DNA of 64,000 bases from a phage. The notes beneath the pieces are model-generated. The model made no database searches. It was not told the DNA's origin and worked only from the letters and a program-made list of their open reading frames with translations. Location of the stretch: sequence record PZ452611.1. One strand, 5' to 3'. Position numbers and translations under genes: made by a program. This document shows, one piece after another, positions 2,365 to 57,363 of the stretch (positions are counted from its first letter, which is position 1; the number at the start of each line of letters is the position of its first letter).

Positions 2365-2794
2365 CGACCATCTTCTGAGGTGATATAGTTTCCACAACAA
2401 CTAAGAGAGGAGAGCACTGTGGAGACTAAAATCTTAATTCTTGCTGTGGTAGATACAACCGAAGGAGCTATATTCGAATCTGCAGGAGGGTATTTCTACC
2501 TACCCTACGGAAAAAGAACTGCCGAACCGGGTAAAGATTCAATCATCAAAGTGTTCCCGTGTGCTTTCTGGCTGGAGATTCTGGCATGAAAACCTGCATG
2601 TGTGTGTCCACGCAATCGGATAATCAAGGGCTGTTTGAAGAATATCCAGTAATAGATGGGCCTAGCATATCCTTGTGCGACTTCCTGACTGGGACACGTG
2701 GTGGCTGTACAAAAGTGATGAATATTCAGGCTATTACTTTGCAAAAACATTTACCGGAGAGTTGGTATTTGTTCTGGAGGACTGAGGAGGGCTT

Positions 2795-2989
2795 ATGAGA
2801 AACAAGAAAGAACTTTACTCTGGCGAGTGGATCAACGATCAACAGATTGGAGAGGTAACCTGCTTCCGATGTTTTACCAGGTACAATATTAAAACTGCAC
2901 CAAAAAGTGTTCCAAAGACTGATGGTTATTACATAAAAGAACCTTATTGCCCAAAATGTAAATGCCGATTATATTGGAGTAACCTGTAA
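2795..2989 (+). CDS. small Cys-rich protein (zinc ribbon)
   Basis: 64 aa, CxxC...CxxC, GAGGAGG RBS. Confidence 0.4.
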   Translation: MRNKKELYSGEWINDQQIGEVTCFRCFTRYNIKTAPKSVPKTDGYYIKEPYCPKCKCRLYWSNL

Positions 2990-3251
2990 AAGATTGACAT
3001 CTGAAAACTGCAGTGTATAATATATGCATAAACTAACAGAGAGTGATGTATTATGGTAATTTTTAACCGGGATGGTATCATAGTTAGACAGCACCCGTTC
3101 CTTGAATACTATCAAATTGAGCAATGGTGCTACGGGGATTGCAGTCACTCCTATGGGCAAAGTTGGGGATATCGTACAGTTTTTGAATCCACAGACCTTG
3201 ACAAAGTAAGACAGAAAGTTTTAGAACTTATTAACAACAAGTGAGTATGAT

Positions 3252-4040: not shown

Positions 4041-4366
4041 CAGAGATCATCATTTCAACTGCAGGGTATGTGTTCCTGACAATCATTGCACTGACTATTT
4101 TGGTGACAGTGTATGGGTTTGTTATCCTTCCTATCCTTGAGACATTTAGTTTGTGTCGGTGTTGGAGAAAAGCTTACGGTCCACAACCATGGAAGGACTG
4201 GCCCCACCTAGTGCGCTTAGCGTTCTCTTATGCTTACGATCACTCCAGCAGTGCATGCATAACCGGATACCACGCCCACAACTGGAGCTGGGAAGGGTTG
4301 AGGAAATGGAATGTTACAAAGACCATACCTCTGCGCATGTACAAACCTAAAAACAAAGACAGCTGA
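4037..4366 (+). CDS. hypothetical membrane protein
   Basis: 109 aa, hydrophobic N-terminus, ATGA overlap with upstream stop. Confidence 0.4.
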   Translation: MTEIIISTAGYVFLTIIALTILVTVYGFVILPILETFSLCRCWRKAYGPQPWKDWPHLVRLAFSYAYDHSSSACITGYHAHNWSWEGLRKWNVTKTIPLRMYKPKNKDS

Positions 4367-4384
4367 TACTTGAAAATTCCTGGC

Positions 4385-4960
4385 ATATCAAGTATAAGGG
4401 GGATTTCTAAAATGGATTTCCTCCTTTTGATATTTCACCGGGCTGGATATTTTAAAATTCTTAGAAAATCAGAAAATGGATCGAAAACTAAAATGGATTT
4501 TTTCAGCACAGGCGCGGAAAATTGTGCCAATCTATCTAGCCGTTTGCACCATATTCGAGATCACCGTTCCAGATTTCCCACACATACACACCTCTCCACC
4601 ATACCTTTCTCCACTCACTCTTAGTGATTTATGACGGAAAACCCATCGCTATCAGTGAGTTGCGGTACAATTTTTCCAGTACTCGATCTACTTTTCATCT
4701 CATGGCTTGGATTTTCTGAAAATTTTTCTCGATAAATTTCTCAGTACTCGATCTGTTTTTCGTTTTCTGAATCGGATTTTCTGGAAATCGTTCCGGAGCT
4801 CGACCTGAAATTTTTGGGGACGAAATCGATTTTTCGTTTTCAGAAATGGATTTTTAAAATTTCTATATGGGAATATTTTATGGGATACTGTTTTATAGGA
4901 AATTGTTACGGAGGGTAATTAGCATGCTAACTAAATTTATGAAATGCGAAAAGTTCTCAT
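4385..4960. repeat. ORF-poor repeat region (AAAATGGATTT x4, GGATTTTCTGRAAAT x2, TACTCGATCT x2)
   Basis: short direct repeats read directly in sequence; no convincing RBS-led ORF. Confidence 0.6.
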
Positions 4961-6386: not shown

Positions 6387-6791
6387 ATGAATAAGAACGT
6401 ACGCCGCATCATGAACGAGTTGGCAAACGATGAAAAAATTATTGACATGCATTTGATCAACATTTGCCGCCGTTGTGTAACATATAACAACCGCGCCGCA
6501 AAAGCGCGTGAGATGAACGCAAAAGGCACCTTAAAGCCATTCCAGGTGGTGGTAAAGGCCATTAAAGATGTAACTAATACGGCAAACCAGGTACAGGGGA
6601 ACACCAACGAGAGTACCAATATTGATCCGGCTTACATCATGAAACGGATCCGGACCTGCAAGAACAAAGAGCAAGTGTATAATGTCATAGACTGGTTGGA
6701 TTCTATGGGCGATGTGGTTTACAATAGGTTTTCTGCAGCTATCGAGATCCAGCTTGACAGGTTGGACGGTAAAGTACTAAAAACTTACTAA
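6387..6791 (+). CDS. hypothetical protein
   Basis: 134 aa, RBS AAAGGAAAAAG. Confidence 0.55.
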   Translation: MNKNVRRIMNELANDEKIIDMHLINICRRCVTYNNRAAKAREMNAKGTLKPFQVVVKAIKDVTNTANQVQGNTNESTNIDPAYIMKRIRTCKNKEQVYNVIDWLDSMGDVVYNRFSAAIEIQLDRLDGKVLKTY

Positions 6792-6793
6792 GT

Positions 6794-6838
6794 TTATTTT
6801 TAGATGGCCTTGACTCCAGGGCCATCGATAAAGTAAAC
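6794..6838. promoter_or_regulatory. conserved palindromic cassette TTTTTAGATGGCCTTGACT-CAGGGCCATC-ATAAAGTAAAC (copy 1)
   Basis: near-identical 45 bp element also at 7424-7470 and 11166-11210; inverted repeat GATGGCC/GGCCATC flanks TTGACT. Confidence 0.6.
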
Positions 6839-6871
6839 TAATCCCAGTTAAGCGAAAAAGGAGGCTTGAAG

Positions 6872-6991
6872 ATGAGCACTACACGCCAACACACAAAGGT
6901 AACGATTATCGTTTGCATCATTGGTTACATCCTGGCGCAAATGTTGATGGGTAGCGCCAATGATTTCGCAAAATTTTTCTTAGACTTTTAA
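6872..6991 (+). CDS. small hydrophobic peptide (39 aa)
   Basis: AAAGGAGG RBS then ATG; single predicted TM; below track length cutoff. Confidence 0.4.
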   Translation: MSTTRQHTKVTIIVCIIGYILAQMLMGSANDFAKFFLDF

Positions 6992-7071
6992 TTGACAAGC
7001 TAACTTAAATCAGTATAATACTAAGCACATAAACGGGAAAACTTCCCAGAACACCAAAAGGAGAAAACATT

Positions 7072-7422
7072 ATGAATACTTCCATCACTATGACCGCCGA
7101 AGAAAAAGCCCTGCAGATCGCCGCTCTGAAAAAACAGATTGCAGAACTTGAAGACAAGATCGACAATTTTGAAATCGACGAAGACAAATACGACGATAAA
7201 TATGATGAATGGTTGGACGAGATCTACGGCGAAATTATGATCGGAAACATTTCTTTTCTTCCGTCGCGTATCCTCAAGGAGCTAGATCCTATCGCTTACC
7301 GCTGCGGATTTAGCGACTACATCGACAGCCTGGATATTGAGGACGATGAAGAATACCAGGAATTACAGACAGAGCTTGAAGAAGTGAAAGAAGAGCTTGC
7401 AGAACTGGAAGAAAACGAGTAA
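7072..7422 (+). CDS. acidic coiled-coil protein
   Basis: 116 aa, AAAGGAGAAAACATTATG. Confidence 0.55.
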   Translation: MNTSITMTAEEKALQIAALKKQIAELEDKIDNFEIDEDKYDDKYDEWLDEIYGEIMIGNISFLPSRILKELDPIAYRCGFSDYIDSLDIEDDEEYQELQTELEEVKEELAELEENE

Positions 7423-7423
7423 A

Positions 7424-7470
7424 TTTATTTTTAGATGGCCTTGACTTCAGGGCCATCAATAAAGTAAACT
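7424..7470. promoter_or_regulatory. conserved palindromic cassette (copy 2)
   Basis: same 45 bp element as 6794-6838. Confidence 0.6.
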
Positions 7471-7511
7471 TTAGACTGTTAACACTTAACCAATACAGAG
7501 GAGTTAAAACC

Positions 7512-7757
7512 ATGGCCGCACTAATTACCAAATATTATGCCCCTACCAACACCAAAAGCGCCCGTATCATGGTAAAAGGCTTCGGACGTAAAAAGGTGTA
7601 CACCTGGGATTATTCCCTAGACATGGAAGACAACTACACCAACGCGATGACAGATTTTATTAATGAGCTGAACACGCGGATCTTGACAAATTATAAAATT
7701 ACCGATATTGCCTATATAGGGGAAGGCGGGATCTGTTTTGTCGGTATCGTCAAATAA
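7512..7757 (+). CDS. hypothetical protein
   Basis: 81 aa, GAGGAG RBS. Confidence 0.5.
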   Translation: MAALITKYYAPTNTKSARIMVKGFGRKKVYTWDYSLDMEDNYTNAMTDFINELNTRILTNYKITDIAYIGEGGICFVGIVK

Positions 7758-7833
7758 ACTGTTTTTTCGGTGGTCCTGGTAGCAGGGCCATCTATAAAGA
7801 TAGTTTATCAGCACAATGAAAGGAGAAAGTAAC

Positions 7834-8187
7834 ATGATCAGCGGGGCAAGTTTTATTATTGGCGCTATTGCTACGGCTTTAATTGTAAACAAGATCCAAT
7901 CCAAAAACGAAAAAGAGAGCAACGCGCTTACAGAATACCCATTTTGGGTATTCAACGACAATGAAGACTACATTATCAAGTACAAGGATGAGAAAGGGGA
8001 CCAGGTAACACCGAGACCGATCCCAGCTTACAAGATGCAAGAAACATTATACCGCTTAAAGGCTGGCGGCGCAAAAATCGTAGACTTTTGGGGATATGAT
8101 TGCAAGGATCAGGAGACTATAAAACGTCGTATCCGGGCGATTCAGGCAAATATTGAGATCAGTAAAGGGGGCGTTTATGAAAATTAA
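7834..8187 (+). CDS. hypothetical protein with N-terminal TM
   Basis: start moved to ATG 7834 after AAAGGAGAAAG RBS (track 7816). Confidence 0.5.
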   Translation: MISGASFIIGAIATALIVNKIQSKNEKESNALTEYPFWVFNDNEDYIIKYKDEKGDQVTPRPIPAYKMQETLYRLKAGGAKIVDFWGYDCKDQETIKRRIRAIQANIEISKGGVYEN

Positions 8188-8374
8188 TTTCGAAAAAATT
8201 GTAAAGCGCCCCCACGATTCCGAAGAGCTGCCGGAACGCCGCCAGCGTAACAATAAACTGAATAAACCGAAAAGGTTCGGGAAGATCTGGAGAAATCACT
8301 ATGATCGCAAATTACCGGGCCTGCTTTTGGAACGTGAACGACAGGCGGAACGATACCGCCACAAAGACAAATAG
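8177..8374 (+). CDS. small basic protein
   Basis: Arg/Lys-rich 65 aa; internal ATG after AAAGGGGG. Confidence 0.4.
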   Translation: MKINFEKIVKRPHDSEELPERRQRNNKLNKPKRFGKIWRNHYDRKLPGLLLERERQAERYRHKDK

Positions 8375-8382
8375 CAACCAAC

Positions 8383-8410
8383 GCCCCGCCATTGTGCGGG
8401 GCTTTTTATT
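8383..8410 (+). terminator. rho-independent terminator
   Basis: GCCCCGCC-attgt-GCGGGGC followed by TTTTT. Confidence 0.7.
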
Positions 8411-8555
8411 TCTATCCCGCCGATAGCGCCCCTGGTTGGCCCTACAAGCGCCATAAAGGCCCCTACCTATGCAATCCCCTTTCTTAACCTGAAAACAGCG
8501 TCTAGGGCCGTTTTATGGCGTTAAAAATATTATTGACAGTAATTCTATTTAAAGC

Positions 8556-8584
8556 TTGACACCTTGGGATAGTCCGGATATACT
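8556..8584 (+). promoter_or_regulatory. sigma70-like promoter TTGACA-N17-TATACT
   Basis: second TTGACA at 8533; upstream of gene 8620. Confidence 0.5.
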
Positions 8585-8619
8585 AACCACATCAAAGCAA
8601 GAAGGAAGGAGTAAACGCC

Positions 8620-8880
8620 ATGCGTAAATTAAAAAATTTTGATAAAGTAGATGTTGTCCTGAATAATTTTTACTACTGCAATAATAAAGCCGTTTGGTGG
8701 CGTGATAGTTCCACCGATAAAGTTAAAGCGCGCTTTCTCCAAGGGCACTGGCAAGGCCGCCCAGTGATTAAAATCTCGGGGCAATTGGTAGCGTTTAAAA
8801 ATTGCCGCCGTGTTGATGACGTTGAAGAGATTCTAAACATTTTACGCCACAATAATTTAAAAAATAGTGTTGACAAGTAA
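8620..8880 (+). CDS. hypothetical protein
   Basis: 86 aa, GGAAGGAG RBS. Confidence 0.5.
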   Translation: MRKLKNFDKVDVVLNNFYYCNNKAVWWRDSSTDKVKARFLQGHWQGRPVIKISGQLVAFKNCRRVDDVEEILNILRHNNLKNSVDK

Positions 8881-8897
8881 GTCTCAATAAGTATACT
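8870..8897 (+). promoter_or_regulatory. sigma70-like promoter TTGACA-N16-TATACT
   Basis: followed by hairpin GGCGGGAAaacTTCCCGCC (8908-8926). Confidence 0.5.
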
Positions 8898-8954
8898 TAA
8901 ACACACAGGCGGGAAAACTTCCCGCCACTAACAAAGAAAATAGGAGAAAATATC

Positions 8955-9578
8955 ATGACCACCGTTAACATTACCACAGGTTACAATTTAGCTTTCGACG
9001 TGCTGACCGACGAACAAAAAGAAAAAGCCGTTGAAATGGTCCGAGAAAGAGAAGAACACAGCGGGGATAACTTTTTTGCAGAAAGTGTAATTGAAGACTA
9101 TAAAGAATATGTCTTTCCAGAGTATGGCCTTGAAGATACCAAGGTACATTGGTCCGGCTTTTGGTGCCAGGGTGACGGCGCGTCAATCAGTGCGGAAAAC
9201 GTGGATTTAGAAAAATTCTTGCGTAAAGTAAAGGCCCTGACCAAGTTCCGATCAATTCGTCACTTGTTCGGCACAATGCACGATGGCGAGCTATCCGCAA
9301 GTGTTGAGCGTGATCCATATAGCCGCTATAGTCACGAAAACACTGTAAGCGGGTACATCGATACTACATGGCTAGACCTGACCGCCAAACAAGAAAATAA
9401 AGTGGAAGATCTGGAAGAGCTGATCACCGAGACGGTACGGGAGCTATCCCGCAAGGTTTACGTAGACCTGGAGGAGGCCTATCTAGAACAGTTCACTACC
9501 GAAAACCTGATCGGCCTTATTGAGGCCAATGATTGGCGGTTTGATGTGGATGAATATGGAGAGATGAGTTTTTCATAA
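8955..9578 (+). CDS. hypothetical protein
   Basis: 207 aa, TAGGAGAAAATATCATG. Confidence 0.6.
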   Translation: MTTVNITTGYNLAFDVLTDEQKEKAVEMVREREEHSGDNFFAESVIEDYKEYVFPEYGLEDTKVHWSGFWCQGDGASISAENVDLEKFLRKVKALTKFRSIRHLFGTMHDGELSASVERDPYSRYSHENTVSGYIDTTWLDLTAKQENKVEDLEELITETVRELSRKVYVDLEEAYLEQFTTENLIGLIEANDWRFDVDEYGEMSFS

Positions 9579-9667
9579 ATAAAGTGTTGCAATAATCTAA
9601 AAACCTGCTATATTAAAACTCAAGGGGCAAGACGTTTGCCCCCACACAAAACAAAGAGGAAAACATC

Positions 9668-10048
9668 ATGAAAAACACTACCAAAGCTATTTACACCGTT
9701 ATGTTTAACCTGGTTACCTTTCGCGAGGATATGAAAGATCTTCCGCGTGAAACAGTGTGCGACCATATCGAAAACTATCGCAAACTAATCAAAGAGTTGC
9801 CTTTAAAACGTGATCAGTATGCGGCTAACGCCATGCTTAATGCCATGATCAAAAAGATGATCCAGTGTGATTTAATTCTAGCCTATGATTATGCGGGTGG
9901 TCGTTTTGCAGTATACAATCAGCCCGTGCCCGGTATGGGCACCATCGAAGAATTGCACGCGCTCAATCTAAAACAAGATGTGTGGGATAGTATGCCCCGC
10001 GTGGTGGTGTGGGCAGAAAGCGGGAAGATTTACGGCGATAGTTTTTAA
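9668..10048 (+). CDS. hypothetical protein
   Basis: 126 aa, AAAGAGGAAAACATCATG. Confidence 0.55.
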   Translation: MKNTTKAIYTVMFNLVTFREDMKDLPRETVCDHIENYRKLIKELPLKRDQYAANAMLNAMIKKMIQCDLILAYDYAGGRFAVYNQPVPGMGTIEELHALNLKQDVWDSMPRVVVWAESGKIYGDSF

Positions 10049-10112
10049 TCAGGTAACAGGCGGCATATTTGCCGCCTTATTGTTAAACAAAACTGCAAAA
10101 GAGGTACATAGA

Positions 10113-10484
10113 ATGGAATTTATTATTTTGGCTGTATTGGTTGCCTTGTTTAACGCCTGGATCGCTGGCAAGATGGGCAGATCCGCCTTTTTATGGTTTA
10201 TTATATCTATTTTCCTGGGGGTGGTTGCAACTATTGTATTGGTTATCCTTGCAATTGTTGACAAGGGGAATAATAGAAAGGGTAAAGTATTTTCAGACCT
10301 GTACGACGCTCAAACGTTTGTCAACGCCTATTATAGTGATCTTCCAGTCTCCCTACGCTGCAGCTTGGCACAACAGGTTTTTGATGAGGCTAAAACCAGA
10401 GATCAAGCCCATGAGATATGTTTAACTGAGGCGGATCGCCTATTTGAGAGGAATAGAAAATATGTGGGCCAACCGTTTAAATAA
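10113..10484 (+). CDS. membrane protein (2 TM)
   Basis: internal ATG with AAAAGAGG RBS; two hydrophobic helices. Confidence 0.5.
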   Translation: MEFIILAVLVALFNAWIAGKMGRSAFLWFIISIFLGVVATIVLVILAIVDKGNNRKGKVFSDLYDAQTFVNAYYSDLPVSLRCSLAQQVFDEAKTRDQAHEICLTEADRLFERNRKYVGQPFK

Positions 10485-10707
10485 TGCCACGTTAATTAAT
10501 CCCTTTAGTGAAGATTTGAAGCCAGCCGCCTGGCGTGACGGATTCAATAACGAACGCTTTATTTTCAGGCCTGATCTTGAGGAATTTTATAACAATGGAT
10601 CGAACAACAGCGGAGATAATTTTTCTTGTGGTGTGTGTCGTGATAGGACTCCTGGGGGCCATTGTAGATCGCGTCACTACTACCAGAAGGAAAGGGGGAG
10701 ACGATGA
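10444..10707 (+). CDS. hypothetical protein
   Basis: ORF ending in ATGA overlap with next small gene; true start possibly ATG 10462. Confidence 0.3.
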   Translation: MRGIENMWANRLNNATLINPFSEDLKPAAWRDGFNNERFIFRPDLEEFYNNGSNNSGDNFSCGVCRDRTPGGHCRSRHYYQKERGRR

Positions 10708-10823
10708 CAACCAAGGATAAGCCATGCACCGATAAGGTGCGCCGCGTTATGGTATGGCTTGAGATTATCGCCCTTGAAATATTGCTAGGCGTAGGGATGT
10801 ACTTTATCGCTGTAAGTAACTAA
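10704..10823 (+). CDS. small membrane peptide (39 aa)
   Basis: AAAGGGGGAG RBS; hydrophobic core; followed by terminator. Confidence 0.4.
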   Translation: MTTKDKPCTDKVRRVMVWLEIIALEILLGVGMYFIAVSN

Positions 10824-10827
10824 GAAC

Positions 10828-10856
10828 GGCCCCCGATCATGGGGGCCTATCTTTTA
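10828..10856 (+). terminator. rho-independent terminator
   Basis: GGCCCCC-gatcat-GGGGGCC followed by T-rich run. Confidence 0.65.
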
Positions 10857-10963
10857 AAAAAAAATTTTCTTCCGGGGTGTTGCAATCCGGTCCGGAATGT
10901 GGATAATAACAATCAACGGGGAGCTAATCCCCACCACCACAAAAACCAGAAAGGAGAAACAAA

Positions 10964-11164
10964 ATGAGCAACAATATCCGCGTTATTAACTTCAAAAAAG
11001 AAGAAAAAATTGCCGTGCTGATTGACGGTCAAGAAATCTTCAAGGGCGACTATGAAGATCATCAAACGGCGATTAGTATCACTCGCGTGATTGGTTACCA
11101 TAATTTCTACCCCCAAGGCGCTGAGGCAGCAGTTAAACGAATCAAAGAGATTGTAGGCCTGTAA
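10964..11164 (+). CDS. hypothetical protein
   Basis: 66 aa, AAAGGAGAAACAAAATG. Confidence 0.5.
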   Translation: MSNNIRVINFKKEEKIAVLIDGQEIFKGDYEDHQTAISITRVIGYHNFYPQGAEAAVKRIKEIVGL

Positions 11165-11165
11165 A

Positions 11166-11210
11166 ATTTATTTTTAGATGGCCTTGACTTCAGGGCCATC
11201 AATAAAGTAA
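11166..11210. promoter_or_regulatory. conserved palindromic cassette (copy 3)
   Basis: same 45 bp element as 6794-6838. Confidence 0.6.
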
Positions 11211-11255
11211 ATTTAAACCCTGTTAAAATAATCAGTGCAAAAAGGAGTAATGATC

Positions 11256-11555: not shown

Positions 11556-11779
11556 TTCCGGCAAATGATGCAAAATAAGGCCCCTAGCAGGGCCTGCAGC
11601 GATATAATCACATAAAGGCTATGCGGTTGCATGGCCTTTATTATTTTAGCGTTACAGCGTCCCCAAGGCGCTTAAAAAATTTTTAAAGAAGTACTTGCAT
11701 CAAGTCCTACAATATGGATAATAGGACGTGTCAGGGGGGCGGCCCCCAATCATTAACCGGATAGATAGGAGTTAAAATC

Positions 11780-13741: not shown

Positions 13742-13756
13742 TATTTATAAACTACA

Positions 13757-13787
13757 AAACAGGGCTTGCAATGGTCCTGTTTTTTGT
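13757..13787 (+). terminator. putative rho-independent terminator
   Basis: ACAGG-loop-CCTGT followed by TTTTTT. Confidence 0.45.
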
Positions 13788-13800
13788 TATACTTATTCCA

Positions 13801-15459: not shown

Positions 15460-16059
15460 CTGTATTTCTCCTACCACAAACGGCCCAGCCTGGCAAGTGG
15501 AATAATTGACTAGCCAGCAATTACCAACACTGTACAAATATACATATAAAATAACTATTGCATAATCTTTCATCTTGTGGTAGCAGGGCCATTTTTACAC
15601 GTTTTCCTTCCAAAATTGCACGTAATGCAGCTATTGCATAAAATTTAACCTGATGCACATCTTCAATAGCTTGTCAACAACTAAAAATCTTTATAAGTCA
15701 TACACTTACATAACCACAAAAGCGTGTTCTACGTGAAAAATCGAGTATAACTATAGCCGCCAGATCTCAGAATTTACGTACGCTCACCATTCTATAGTCT
15801 GCTAAGTATTTATTCCAACCATAGAATAACAGAATAGTCAATACCTGCATAAAATAATTATTCGTGTAAACTGCATAACATAAATCAGCCGGGGTGTCAA
15901 CATTTTTCGTAAACGGCTCGAAATTATCACTGTGAGCTATCATAAACAGAGAAATCTTTAGTCGTCTAATGTTTACTGTACGTTACTATACTAACTGGAA
16001 TCATTAGATGACTAATAAAAAGATAAGAAATCATTAACAATGCAATTGTTTTATTCATA

Positions 16060-56720: not shown

Positions 56721-56794
56721 ACCAGTAAAAACTTAAATATCTGTACTATAAGGATTCGTATGTTTTATGTTCGCTCTGGAACAGAGGTTAGTAA

Positions 56795-56876
56795 CTGTCC
56801 GTGATACGGACACTACTGTCCGTCACGCGGACACATCTGCCCGTAATACGGACACTAACTGTCCGTGATACGGACA
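56795..56876. repeat. four tandem 21-bp repeats with palindromic core CTGTCCGTGATACGGACAC
   Basis: copies at 56795, 56816, 56837, 56858; GTCCGT/ACGGAC inverted repeat in each. Confidence 0.75.
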
Positions 56877-57363
56877 CATAAAGAATATAACTAAAATAAC
56901 TAAATAATAAAAAATAAAAGATCTAGTACTTATGGTACTAAAGTACATATACTTAACTTATGTAGAATATACTAGATCCTAAGTACCATGTTTTAAATTT
57001 ATTACTTACCATAGGTAGTGTCGGCCCTTCATTGGCACTCGCCTACGAGGGGCGAGATGCCGGGCCTCCGTAGTGCACACATGCAGGTCTGTTAACATGT
57101 GTGGGAGCGAAGCGATAGCGCAGGCCAAAGGCCGAGCACTAATGTGGACCACCGACGAAAGCTTGCCAGCGCCGTAAGGAGTCGGTTGAGAGCCTCCCGC
57201 GCGAGTTTGGATAAAGTTTATGTGTGGAAACGGACAATGAGGCCCCTAAATCGCTCCACAGCCATATAAACTATACCAAGTAAGGCAATCGCACCAGTTT
57301 GATAGAAAAGCTCGTTACAAAGCGATACAGTGAGTTTTTCTATAACTTGAAGAGGAGGCAGCT

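What the first reader, a model, noticed from the sequence alone, without database searches (positions are those of the whole stretch)
6794..11210. Repeated 45 bp palindromic promoter-like cassette after three genes
The element TTATTTTTAGATGGCCTTGACT-CAGGGCCATC-ATAAAGTAAAC occurs almost identically at 6794-6838, 7424-7470 and 11166-11210, each just after a stop codon. Degenerate versions containing GGTAGCAGGGCCAT lie at 7769-7808 and about 15565-15590. It contains a perfect inverted repeat GATGGCC/GGCCATC around a TTGACT -35-like hexamer, followed by a TAAAGT/TAAACT -10-like box. It could be a promoter overlapped by an operator palindrome for a dimeric regulator, or a transcript processing or termination hairpin without a T-tract.
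Basis: seen in the sequence. Interest (0 to 1): 0.5.

Follow-up and report, generated by a model that had tools for sequence, protein, structure and literature searches.

The report
Repeated RNA hairpin–promoter cassette in rV5
Four copies of a 51-base cassette sit at the stop codons of small early genes of coliphage rV5; each folds on the sense strand into a two-part hairpin shaped like the RNase III cutting sites of phage T7, three of them also carry promoter-like boxes, and related phages have gained or lost genes exactly at these repeats.

Summary
The window is coliphage rV5 (Vequintavirus), and the finding lies in its early cluster of genes of unknown function. The repeats are real. There are three near-identical 51-nt copies (6790-6840, 7421-7471, 11164-11214) and one diverged copy (7756-7806), with no others in the 138-kb genome.

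Each copy folds on the + strand only into one extended hairpin: an 11-bp A/U lower stem, a 2x3 internal loop, a 10-bp G/C upper stem and a tetraloop. Thirty-two distinct copies from 13 genomes keep 95.7% of pairs, through double changes and G·U-only changes. This argues against a DNA operator. The diverged copy keeps the fold but loses TTGACT.

A covariance model built only from the five early T7 RNase III sites ranks these four elements as its top four hits in the window (22.5-28.9 bits; unrelated background at most 16.2).

Copies a, b and d also carry an A/T-rich tract, TTGAC(T/A) and TAAA(C/T)T with an 18-bp spacer. This layout resembles the PeSL promoter/stem-loop cassettes of T4-like phages.

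Two relatives and one metagenomic contig lack the 631-bp module between copies a and b and keep a single chimeric copy. A phage of another subfamily carries promoter-ORF192-copy b.

No cleavage or promoter activity has been tested. I file it as a new member of known kinds, of moderate interest.

The parts
6790..6840 (+). Copy a: 51-nt bipartite hairpin cassette. It overlaps the TAA stop of ORF194 and lies upstream of ORF193.
   Evidence: RNA MFE -26.1 kcal/mol, z -6.8; minus strand -16.4; T7 RNase III model, 24.8 bits.
7421..7471 (+). Copy b: the same cassette. It overlaps the TAA stop of ORF192 and lies upstream of ORF191.
   Evidence: -20.3 kcal/mol, z -6.1; 24.2 bits.
7756..7806 (+). Copy c: the diverged copy, after the ORF191 stop and upstream of ORF190. 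It keeps the whole fold through compensatory and G·U changes. The loop is GUAG instead of ACUU, so there is no TTGACT.
   Evidence: -25.1 kcal/mol, z -7.1; minus strand only -9.2; 22.5 bits.
11164..11214 (+). Copy d: the same cassette, after the ORF179 stop and upstream of ORF178.
   Evidence: -22.6 kcal/mol, z -5.9; 28.9 bits, best hit in the window.
6803..6826 (+). Upper stem and tetraloop of copy a (10 bp). The equivalents are 7434-7457 (b), 7769-7792 (c) and 11177-11200 (d). The 2nd and 3rd pairs from the loop are U-A and U·G in a, b and d, which is the canonical RNase III distal box.
   Evidence: 100% of cells paired; distal-box definition, PMC1540722.
6829..6830 (+). Inferred RNase III cut, ...GGCCAUC(G/A/U)AU^AAAG..., on the 3' side of the internal loop. 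The equivalents are 7460/7461, 7795/7796 and 11203/11204.
   Evidence: Inference from the gapless alignment to the T7 consensus CCUUUAU^GAU. ATAAAG is invariant or nearly so in all 32 copies. Not demonstrated.
6810..6839 (+). Sigma70-like boxes of copy a: TTGACT (6810-6815), 18 bp, TAAACT (6834-6839). The equivalents are 7441-7470 (b) and 11184-11213 (d, TAAATT). There is no counterpart in copy c.
   Evidence: 9 of 12 matches; PhagePromoter predictions at the orthologous b and d sites in Gotham.
6841..7420 (+). The module bracketed by copies a and b: ORF193, consensus promoter P192 (6992-7019) and ORF192. It is absent from phages magaca and ECP32 and from one IMG/VR contig, which keep one chimeric copy. 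Its right-hand part (6991-7468) is present in Justusliebigvirus KKE7M.
15578..15592 (+). A 15-mer identical to the loop and 3' arm of copy c. It may be a relic and is not a structural member of the family.
   Evidence: no hit.

Best explanation
The elements are sense-strand RNA hairpin cassettes at the 3' ends of early genes of unknown function in phage rV5.

Shown. Each is a 21-bp bipartite hairpin with an asymmetric internal loop 10 bp below a tetraloop. The fold is maintained by selection on the + strand. It has the architecture of the T7 early RNase III processing signals and part of their sequence signature.

Inferred. Read-through transcripts are cut by host RNase III on the 3' side of the internal loop (GGCCAUCNAU^AAAG). 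The upstream message would then end in a protective hairpin, and the downstream message would be released.

Inferred. In copies a, b and d the same DNA also holds a sigma70 promoter, with an A/T-rich tract, -35 TTGAC(T/A) in the loop and -10 TAAA(C/T)T in the descending lower stem. If so, the cassette both ends one expression unit and starts the next. This is the logic of the PeSL promoter/stem-loop cassettes of T4-like phages.

Shown by comparison. Because the copies are near-identical direct repeats, they act as crossover points. Gene modules are deleted, inserted and exchanged at them, even between phage subfamilies.
For: Fold:
- All four copies give the same single hairpin, at -20 to -26 kcal/mol (z -5.9 to -7.1) on the + strand against -9 to -16 on the - strand.
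- They are among the strongest + strand hairpins in the 16.5-kb early region and do not reach the -17 cut-off on the - strand.

Covariation (A1, 32 distinct copies from 13 genomes):
- 95.7% of cells are paired, against 36-60% when the partners are slid by 1-3 columns.
- Four lower-stem pairs show changes on both sides (G-C/A-U, U-A/C-G, U-A/A-U, A-U/U-A).
- The upper stem is 100% paired and varies only through G·U intermediates.

T7 test:
- A covariance model made only from T7 R0.3, R0.5, R1, R1.1 and R1.3 was run over the 64-kb window with filters off.
- Its top four hits are the four elements, all full length and gapless on the + strand, at 28.9, 24.8, 24.2 and 22.5 bits. The next hit scores 18.3 bits.
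- 99 kb of unrelated viral contigs reach at most 16.2 bits.
- Copies in seven relatives score 17.8-30.6 bits, 21 of the 24 at 22.5 or more.

RNase III determinants:
- The U-A and U·G distal box sits at the position defined by Pertzev and Nicholson.
- There is no G:C pair at proximal-box positions 2 or 4 in copies a, b and d.

Promoter:
- The boxes are listed.
- Loop bases A24 and C25 are invariant in a, b and d, while positions 26 and 27 vary freely (T/A/G and C/T). This fits TTGACN.

Recombination:
- magaca and ECP32 align to rV5 up to 6839 and again from 7424 or 7411, and the two alignments overlap on a single copy. That copy has the 5' flank of a and the 3' flank of b.
- KKE7M (Stephanstirmvirinae) shares 6991-7468 at 89.8% identity, and the homology ends inside the element.
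Against: - No transcript ends, RNase III dependence or promoter activity have been measured, and no Vequintavirus transcript-mapping study was found.
- The reciprocal model (rV5 to T7) puts T7 R1 and R0.3 first, but only at 12.2 and 11.4 bits (E about 1), which is not significant.
- Proximal-box positions 1 and 3 (U:A and G:C) are not the optimal G:C and A:U. Copy c has C:G at distal-box position 2 and G·U at proximal-box position 2. Cleavage efficiency therefore cannot be predicted.
- The internal loop is 2x3 nt, against 4x5 nt in the T7 consensus.
- Most of the covariation comes from the contrast between copy c and copies a, b and d, so the number of independent events is small.
- Promoter boxes at 9 of 12 matches with an 18-bp spacer are common by chance: 55 found against 35.5 expected in 16 kb.
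- The authors of the rV5 genome did not annotate these sites as promoters.
Confidence: 0.55

Rival explanations
1. The element is a plain sigma70 early promoter whose -35 region is embedded in a palindromic operator bound by a dimeric phage or host regulator.
For: TTGACT or TTGACA, an 18-bp spacer, TAAACT or TAAATT, and an A/T-rich upstream tract. PhagePromoter calls sit at the orthologous sites in Gotham. There is a perfect 7-bp inverted repeat. rV5 encodes a GntR-like regulator, ORF79.
Against: In copy c the left arm GGTGGTCCTG differs from the complement of the right arm at two positions. Both are transitions that keep G·U pairing on the + strand only, whereas a dsDNA half-site would simply be damaged. 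Copy c loses TTGACT yet is conserved in every relative examined that spans this position. The A/T flanks covary with each other, which an operator does not explain. The half-sites are 17 bp apart centre to centre, an unusual phasing. The element is not found near any regulator gene.
Confidence: 0.07
2. The element is a PeSL-type terminator/attenuator plus promoter. The hairpin stops or attenuates transcription coming from upstream, as was shown for an RB49/phi1 PeSL stem-loop. RNase III is not involved.
For: The layout matches the published PeSL description: stop codon in an A/T-rich tract, sigma70 boxes, a stem-loop with G-T pairs overlapping the -35, then the Shine-Dalgarno sequence and ATG (PMC2839356). 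The element sits in an intergenic position in a gene-shuffling region and is a recombination junction.
Against: No U-tract follows either the upper stem (AAUAAAG) or the whole hairpin, so the terminator scan did not list it. The conserved 2x3 internal loop, the invariant AUAAAG and the A/U lower stem are not features of intrinsic terminators, but they do fit the T7 RNase III model.
Confidence: 0.2
3. The element acts at the DNA level. It would be a recombination or mobility signal (a cruciform or single-stranded hairpin recognised by a phage recombinase or endonuclease) or a small selfish repeat, with no role in RNA.
For: The copies are exact junctions of module deletion and of exchange between subfamilies. 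rV5 encodes endonuclease VII-like proteins. The PeSL authors speculated about a stem-loop-binding recombination protein.
Against: Strand asymmetry: G·U-dependent pairs make the - strand fold far weaker, at -9.2 kcal/mol for copy c. A cruciform needs both strands to fold. All copies are on the coding strand at a fixed register to stop codons and ribosome-binding sites. Ordinary homologous recombination between 51-nt repeats is enough to explain the junctions.
Confidence: 0.08
4. The element is a phage-specific (middle or late) promoter whose core is the invariant ATAAAG. Copy c has TATAAAGA, close to the T4 late consensus TATAAATA.
For: ATAAAG is invariant or nearly so in all copies. The rV5 paper reports T4-late-like motifs upstream of late genes.
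Against: There are only four copies, all in the early cluster and none upstream of structural genes. According to the rV5 paper, rV5 has no gp55, gp33 or gp45 homologues. This reading does not explain the covarying stems.
Confidence: 0.04

Closest known systems
T7 early RNase III processing signals (R0.3, R0.5, R1, R1.1, R1.3)
   Same: - Both lie between early genes on the sense strand.
- Both have a 10-bp upper stem capped by a 4-5-nt loop, an asymmetric internal loop with the longer side 3', and a lower stem, giving about two helical turns.
- The U-A and U·G distal box is at the same place, GGCC is in the 3' arm, and AU lies at the inferred cut.
- Neither has a U-tract.
- Minor E. coli promoters are annotated close to T7 R0.5 and R1 (B start at 1514, C start at 3113).
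- A model of the T7 sites retrieves the rV5 elements specifically.
   Different: - The phage is unrelated (a myovirus of Vequintavirinae, not Autographiviridae).
- The internal loop is 2x3, not 4x5.
- The lower stem is pure A/U and begins in the stop codon.
- Proximal-box positions 1 and 3 are not optimal.
- A -35-like hexamer sits in the loop.
- Cleavage is untested, and the reciprocal model search is not significant.
PeSL (promoter-early stem-loop) cassettes of T4-like phages RB49, phi1, PST and nt-1 (Arbiol et al. 2010, PMC2839356; Comeau et al. 2014, PMC4122927)
   Same: - Both are repeated cassettes of about 50-100 bp between early genes of unknown function.
- Each starts at the upstream stop codon in an A/T-rich tract and has sigma70-like -35 and -10 boxes.
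- Each has a stem-loop with G-T pairs that may overlap the -35, followed by the Shine-Dalgarno sequence and ATG.
- Recombination between copies deletes or inserts gene modules.
   Different: - The host phage is not T4-like.
- The stem-loop is not the GGGG...CCCC type. It is a bipartite 21-bp hairpin with an internal loop.
- No terminator-like U-tract is present.
- There are only four copies in a 4.4-kb stretch.
- One copy (c) has the hairpin without a convincing promoter.
- Mini-circles and promoter or terminator activities are untested here.
Intrinsic (rho-independent) terminators
   Same: A G/C-rich hairpin directly after a stop codon.
   Different: There is no U-tract on either strand. The T-run lies upstream of the hairpin and pairs with the downstream A-run.

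Membership tests
E. coli RNase III processing signal (T7 R1.1 type) | About two helical turns of dsRNA in one hairpin. | tested here: met
   An 11-bp lower stem plus a 10-bp upper stem in all four copies. The criterion is from PMC1540722.
E. coli RNase III processing signal (T7 R1.1 type) | An internal loop about 11 bp below the tetraloop that restricts cleavage to one strand. | tested here: met
   A 2-nt/3-nt internal loop lies directly below the 10-bp upper stem. The T7 sites folded the same way show a 10-bp upper stem and an asymmetric loop.
E. coli RNase III processing signal (T7 R1.1 type) | Distal box: U-A then U·G at the 2nd and 3rd bp from the tetraloop. | tested here: met
   U22-A29 and U21·G30 in copies a, b and d. 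Copy c has U-A then C-G, which is suboptimal.
E. coli RNase III processing signal (T7 R1.1 type) | Proximal box: G:C, A:U or U:A, A:U, A:U or U:A, with no G:C at positions 2 and 4. | tested here: inconclusive
   Position 2 is A:U and position 4 is an A·A mismatch (C·U in copy c, like the U·C of R1.1), and both are acceptable. Position 1 is U:A and position 3 is G:C, which are not optimal. Copy c has G·U at position 2.
E. coli RNase III processing signal (T7 R1.1 type) | Match to a structure-plus-sequence profile of known sites. | tested here: met
   Model R1, built from five T7 sites, gives the four elements as its top four hits at 22.5-28.9 bits. Background is at most 18.3 bits in the window and at most 16.2 bits in 99 kb of unrelated DNA. 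The reciprocal search is not significant. There is no Rfam family match.
E. coli RNase III processing signal (T7 R1.1 type) | Cleavage by RNase III in vivo or in vitro. | not testable with these tools
   No transcript-end data for any Vequintavirus were found.
PeSL promoter/stem-loop cassette | A sigma70-like -35 and -10 with an A/T-rich upstream tract. | tested here: met
   Copies a, b and d have TTGACT, 18 bp, TAAACT or TAAATT (9 of 12 matches), with AAATTTATTTTT upstream. Copy c has only CTGGTA and GATAGT, so it does not meet the criterion.
PeSL promoter/stem-loop cassette | A stable stem-loop, with G-T pairs, within or overlapping the promoter. | tested here: met
   The -35 lies in the loop and upper stem, and the -10 lies in the descending lower stem. 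The classes are described in PMC2839356.
PeSL promoter/stem-loop cassette | Bounded by the upstream stop codon and the downstream Shine-Dalgarno sequence and ATG, between genes of unknown function. | tested here: met
   All flanking proteins fall in PHROG families of unknown function.
PeSL promoter/stem-loop cassette | Copies serve as crossover points for module insertion and deletion. | tested here: met
   There is a chimeric single copy in magaca, ECP32 and IMG/VR contig L014, and the KKE7M homology ends inside the element.
PeSL promoter/stem-loop cassette | Resident in the hyperplastic regions of T4-type phages. | tested here: not met
   The phage is rV5, Vequintavirinae. It works like a PeSL but is not a member of the described T4-type family.
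PeSL promoter/stem-loop cassette | Measured promoter and terminator activity, and mini-circle formation. | not testable with these tools
   These need reporter fusions and inverse PCR.
Intrinsic terminator | A G/C hairpin followed by a U-tract. | tested here: not met
   The elements are not listed by the terminator scan. The tails are AAUAAAGUAAAC on the + strand and UAAAAAUAAA on the - strand.
Operator palindrome for a dimeric DNA-binding protein | Both half-sites conserved as double-stranded DNA sequence. | tested here: not met
   The arms diverge by changes that preserve only + strand G·U pairing, and four upper-stem pairs vary in this way.

The most novel reading that the evidence does not exclude
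The cassette is a portable, bifunctional 'cut here, start here' insulator. It would combine an RNase III processing site and a sigma70 promoter written in the same 51 bases, and it would travel with small gene modules between unrelated phage subfamilies (Vequintavirinae and Stephanstirmvirinae). Any incoming gene would then be expressed and trimmed correctly wherever it lands. By extension, the stem-loops of PeSL-type cassettes in other large lytic phages might in general be RNase III signals rather than terminators.
Probability: 0.2. Interest if true: 0.6.

Novelty: new member of a known kind. Interest (0 to 1): 0.4.

Why it matters
rV5-like phages are widely used candidates for therapy and biocontrol, yet their early regions are annotated as strings of hypothetical genes with predicted promoters only. 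If these cassettes are RNase III sites with built-in promoters, they define the real early transcription units. They would also show that host RNase III shapes gene expression in a large myovirus, as it does in T7.

They further give a concrete, sequence-level mechanism for how genes of unknown function are swapped, within the genus and with a different subfamily. The cut sites are predicted to the nucleotide, so the idea can be tested directly in wild-type and rnc-null hosts.

Tried and rejected
- First search with an 11-nt spacer between the arms found nothing, because the spacer is 10 nt. The search was corrected.
- Exact-pattern scan of IMG/VR for CAGGGCCATCNATAAAG gave mostly chance hits, with two Vequintavirus contigs among them.
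- Protein-anchored scans with ORF191 gave only 2 loci from viral contigs and 4 from metagenomes. The relatives therefore had to be fetched one by one from GenBank phage records.
- Rfam search at a permissive threshold gave only sub-threshold generic hairpin matches such as mir-924 and rhtB.
- Literature searches for Vequintavirus transcriptomics or rV5-like stem-loop promoters found no transcript mapping. The rV5 genome paper does not describe the element.
- The reciprocal covariance model (rV5 to T7) ranked true T7 sites first but was not significant.
- The 'four places' reported for some 'Campylobacter phage' records gave no extra copy in the two such records examined.
- The intrinsic terminator, the operator palindrome and the T4-late-type promoter were considered and rejected, for the reasons given under the rival explanations.
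- The 15578-15592 match was rejected as a family member.

Full report
**Identity and context.** The window is the reverse complement of Escherichia phage rV5 (V5; DQ832317 / NC_011041; Vequintavirus). It is 100% identical apart from a few small indels. The finding lies in the long leftward early unit of rV5. On the window + strand this is a run of small ORFs from ORF214 down to ORF164. All flanking proteins tested belong to PHROG families of unknown function. The GenBank record annotates several sigma70-type promoters here (P195A, P192, P186 and others) but nothing at the elements. The rV5 genome paper does not mention them. In the related phage Gotham, PhagePromoter predictions fall on the orthologous b and d copies.

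**The observation.**
- The 24-nt core GATGGCCTTGACTNCAGGGCCATC occurs three times, against none in 100 shuffles.
- The repeat finder defines a 51-nt family: a 6790-6840, b 7421-7471, d 11164-11214 (92-100% identity) and c 7756-7806 (69%).
- Every copy begins within or right after the TAA of the upstream ORF and is followed 20-45 nt later by a Shine-Dalgarno sequence and ATG.
- An nhmmer profile finds no fifth member in the whole 137,947-bp genome.
- The proposed copy at about 15565-15590 is a 15-mer identical to part of copy c (15578-15592). It has no 5' arm and lies beyond the last early terminator. I treat it as a possible relic.

**Anatomy.** The short palindrome is only the top of a longer structure. 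Folded as RNA, each 51-mer gives the same single hairpin:
- an 11-bp A/U lower stem (AAAUUUAUUUU pairing with AAAGUAAAUUU);
- an internal loop of 2 nt on the 5' side and 3 nt on the 3' side;
- a 10-bp G/C-rich upper stem;
- a tetraloop.

The energies are -20.3 to -26.1 kcal/mol (z -5.9 to -7.1). The complementary strand reaches only -9.2 to -16.4, because several pairs are G·U. In a sliding 56-nt scan of the early region, the four elements are among the strongest + strand hairpins. They do not reach the -17 kcal/mol cut-off on the - strand. TTG of TTGACT is base-paired, and only ACU(U/C) is loop.

**Is the fold selected?** I collected the copies from 13 genomes: rV5, Gotham, magaca, ECP32, slur16, inoa, phita32, O157 typing phage 14, KKE7M and four metagenomic or IMG/VR contigs. 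On 32 distinct sequences (A1), pair counting for the extended hairpin gave these results:
- 95.7% of cells are paired, against 36-60% when the 3' partners are slid by 1-3 columns.
- Four lower-stem pairs show changes on both sides (G-C/A-U/G·U; U-A/C-G; U-A/A-U/G·U; A-U/U-A).
- The upper stem is 100% paired, and four of its pairs vary only through wobble (A-U/G·U, C-G/U·G, U·G/C-G, U-A/U·G).

Such one-sided transitions keep pairing on the + strand and would give C·A mismatches on the other strand. Copy c is the informative case. Relative to a, b and d it differs at three lower-stem pairs on both sides, and its loop is GUAG (GUAA, GUUG, GCUG or GUGG in relatives). TTGACT is therefore gone, yet the whole fold and the string AUAAAG are kept in every relative examined that spans this position. 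One caveat applies. Much of the signal is the contrast between c and a/b/d, so the number of independent events is modest. Together these facts argue for a single-stranded, sense-strand (most simply RNA) structure and against a double-stranded operator.

**What the fold resembles.** It is not an intrinsic terminator, because no U-tract follows on either strand and the terminator scan does not list it. Its proportions are those of the classical T7 early RNase III processing signals. I folded the five T7 sites at their catalogued cleavage coordinates (890, 1468, 3138, 5887, 6448; the coordinates are recalled from the T7 annotation). Each coordinate falls on the 3' side of an internal loop directly below a 9-13-bp upper stem, 10 bp in the five-site consensus fold.

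As a blind test I built a covariance model from those five T7 sequences alone. I ran it over the entire 64-kb window on both strands with filters off.
- The top four hits are exactly the four rV5 elements, all + strand, full length and gapless, at 28.9, 24.8, 24.2 and 22.5 bits (rough E 4e-4 to 0.014).
- The next hit (18.3 bits) is an ordinary terminator-like hairpin at 11598-11653.
- The rest of the rV5 genome adds nothing.
- 99 kb of unrelated viral contigs reach at most 16.2 bits.
- The copies in seven relatives score 17.8-30.6 bits, 21 of the 24 at 22.5 or more.
- The reciprocal model (rV5 elements searched against the T7 early region) ranks T7 R1 and R0.3 first, but at 12.2 and 11.4 bits (E about 1). 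That direction is only suggestive.
- No Rfam family matches.

**RNase III determinants.** Pertzev and Nicholson (PMC1540722) define the requirements for E. coli RNase III: about two helical turns, an 11-bp helix between the cut and the tetraloop, a U-A/U·G distal box, a 4-bp proximal box, and internal loops that limit cutting to one strand and leave a protective 3' hairpin.
- The elements have 21 bp in total.
- They have 10 bp plus one mismatch between the internal loop and the tetraloop.
- U22-A29 and U21·G30 sit exactly at the distal-box position in copies a, b and d.
- There is an A:U pair at proximal-box position 2, and a non-Watson-Crick pair at position 4 (A·A; C·U in copy c, compared with U·C in R1.1).
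- Positions 1 and 3 (U:A and G:C) are not optimal, and copy c has C:G at distal-box position 2.

Reactivity therefore cannot be predicted from sequence. Transferring the T7 cut (CCUUUAU^GAU) through the gapless alignment places the inferred cut at GGCCAUC(G/A/U)AU^AAAG. In window coordinates this is 6829/6830, 7460/7461, 7795/7796 and 11203/11204. This is inference, not observation.

**The promoter question.**
- Copies a, b and d carry TTGACT (TTGACA or TTGACG in relatives), an 18-bp spacer and TAAACT or TAAATT (9 of 12 matches).
- They are preceded by AAATTTATTTTT. From memory this resembles the distal half of the UP-element consensus. I did not test that.
- Such matches are common by chance: 55 found against 35.5 expected in shuffles.
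- One pattern favours a real -35. In a, b and d across genomes, loop bases A24 and C25 are invariant while the next two positions vary freely (T/A/G and C/T). This is what TTGACN predicts, and RNase III has no tetraloop requirement that would explain it.
- Copy c lacks a convincing -35, so the hairpin has a function that does not depend on the promoter.
- In T7, minor E. coli promoters are annotated close to RNase III sites R0.5 and R1 (B start at 1514, C start at 3113).

The composite layout is a stop codon in an A/T tract, sigma70 boxes, a stem-loop with G-T pairs overlapping the -35, then the Shine-Dalgarno sequence and ATG. This is what Arbiol et al. described as PeSL cassettes in the T4-like phages RB49 and phi1 (PMC2839356; also PMC4122927).

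**Recombination junctions.**
- In magaca and ECP32 (and IMG/VR contig L014) the ORF194 homologue is followed directly by the ORF191 homologue.
- rV5 aligns up to 6839 and again from 7424 (magaca) or 7411 (ECP32). The two alignments overlap on a single element, which has the 5' flank of copy a and the 3' flank of copy b. The missing piece is exactly the 631-bp a-to-b repeat unit (ORF193, P192 and ORF192). This is the product expected from crossover between the direct repeats, or the reverse insertion.
- Gotham has a decayed copy a that has lost the 3' arm.
- Downstream of copy d, relatives carry two alternative sequences that diverge right after CCCTGTTAAAA.
- KKE7M, a Justusliebigvirus of the subfamily Stephanstirmvirinae, contains rV5 6991-7468 at 89.8% identity. 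This segment is promoter P192, ORF192 and copy b. Homology begins at the -35 of P192 and ends inside the lower stem of the element. KKE7M is the only record outside Vequintavirus among the 121 records that hold the element. Three other ORFs of the rV5 early cluster also align with KKE7M, at 74-93% identity.

The cassettes therefore mark the borders of exchangeable gene modules, as PeSLs do.

**Verdict.** The operator reading is not supported. The processing-hairpin reading is the best supported, and the promoter reading is plausible for three of the four copies.

My best explanation has confidence of about 0.55 for the full statement. It is higher for 'selected sense-strand hairpin' and for 'recombination junction', and about even for actual RNase III cleavage and for promoter activity. 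The explanation is a T7-type RNase III processing and 3'-stabilising signal at the end of early genes, which in copies a, b and d doubles as a sigma70 promoter cassette and acts as a crossover point for module shuffling.

It works like a PeSL and like a T7 R-site. It is not a member of the T4-type PeSL family by host, and cleavage is untested. I rate it as a new member of known kinds, of moderate interest.

Noticed in passing
window 56792-56877: Four tandem 21-22-bp units, each holding the palindrome TGTCCGT-NNN-ACGGACA. They lie just downstream of the GntR-like regulator gene ORF79 and are followed by a very A/T-rich stretch. This looks like an operator array for that regulator.
   Followed up: no
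window 4669-4854: Three direct repeats of about 47-60 nt, spaced 65 and 74 bp apart, in the ORF-free gap between ORF199 and ORF198. They are also seen as repeats in all nine relatives that span this region. Their function is unknown; iterons or an origin are possibilities.
   Followed up: no
window 6991-7080 and 8860-8962: The consensus promoter cassette P192 (TTGACA-16-TATAAT plus leader) has a second copy, about 73% identical, upstream of ORF185. The P192 copy forms the left border of the module shared with Justusliebigvirus KKE7M.
   Followed up: partly
window 13756-13793: A different hairpin (AAAACAGGGC...GTCCTGTTTT) carries TTGCAA in its loop and is followed by TGT-TATACT. This is a second, unrelated example of the layout with the -35 in a hairpin loop.
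   Followed up: no
window 11598-11653: A 13-bp hairpin (ATAAAGGCTATGC...GCATGGCCTTTAT) followed by TATTTT is the fifth-best hit of the T7 RNase III model (18.3 bits) and recurs in relatives. It looks like an ordinary bidirectional terminator.
   Followed up: partly
L024 (KKE7M) 2762-3095, 4279-4472, 10122-10401: Besides the ORF192 module, three other ORFs of the rV5 early cluster (ORF184, ORF174, ORF172) have homologues of 74-93% identity scattered in the early region of this Stephanstirmvirinae phage. This indicates repeated module exchange between the subfamilies.
   Followed up: partly
phage collection records MG0656xx: Seventeen records named 'Campylobacter phage' (UNVERIFIED, unannotated) match this rV5 region, and those listed are about 93-94% identical to it. 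The two examined (MG065644, MG065646) carry Vequintavirus taxonomy lines, so the names and hosts look unreliable.
   Followed up: no
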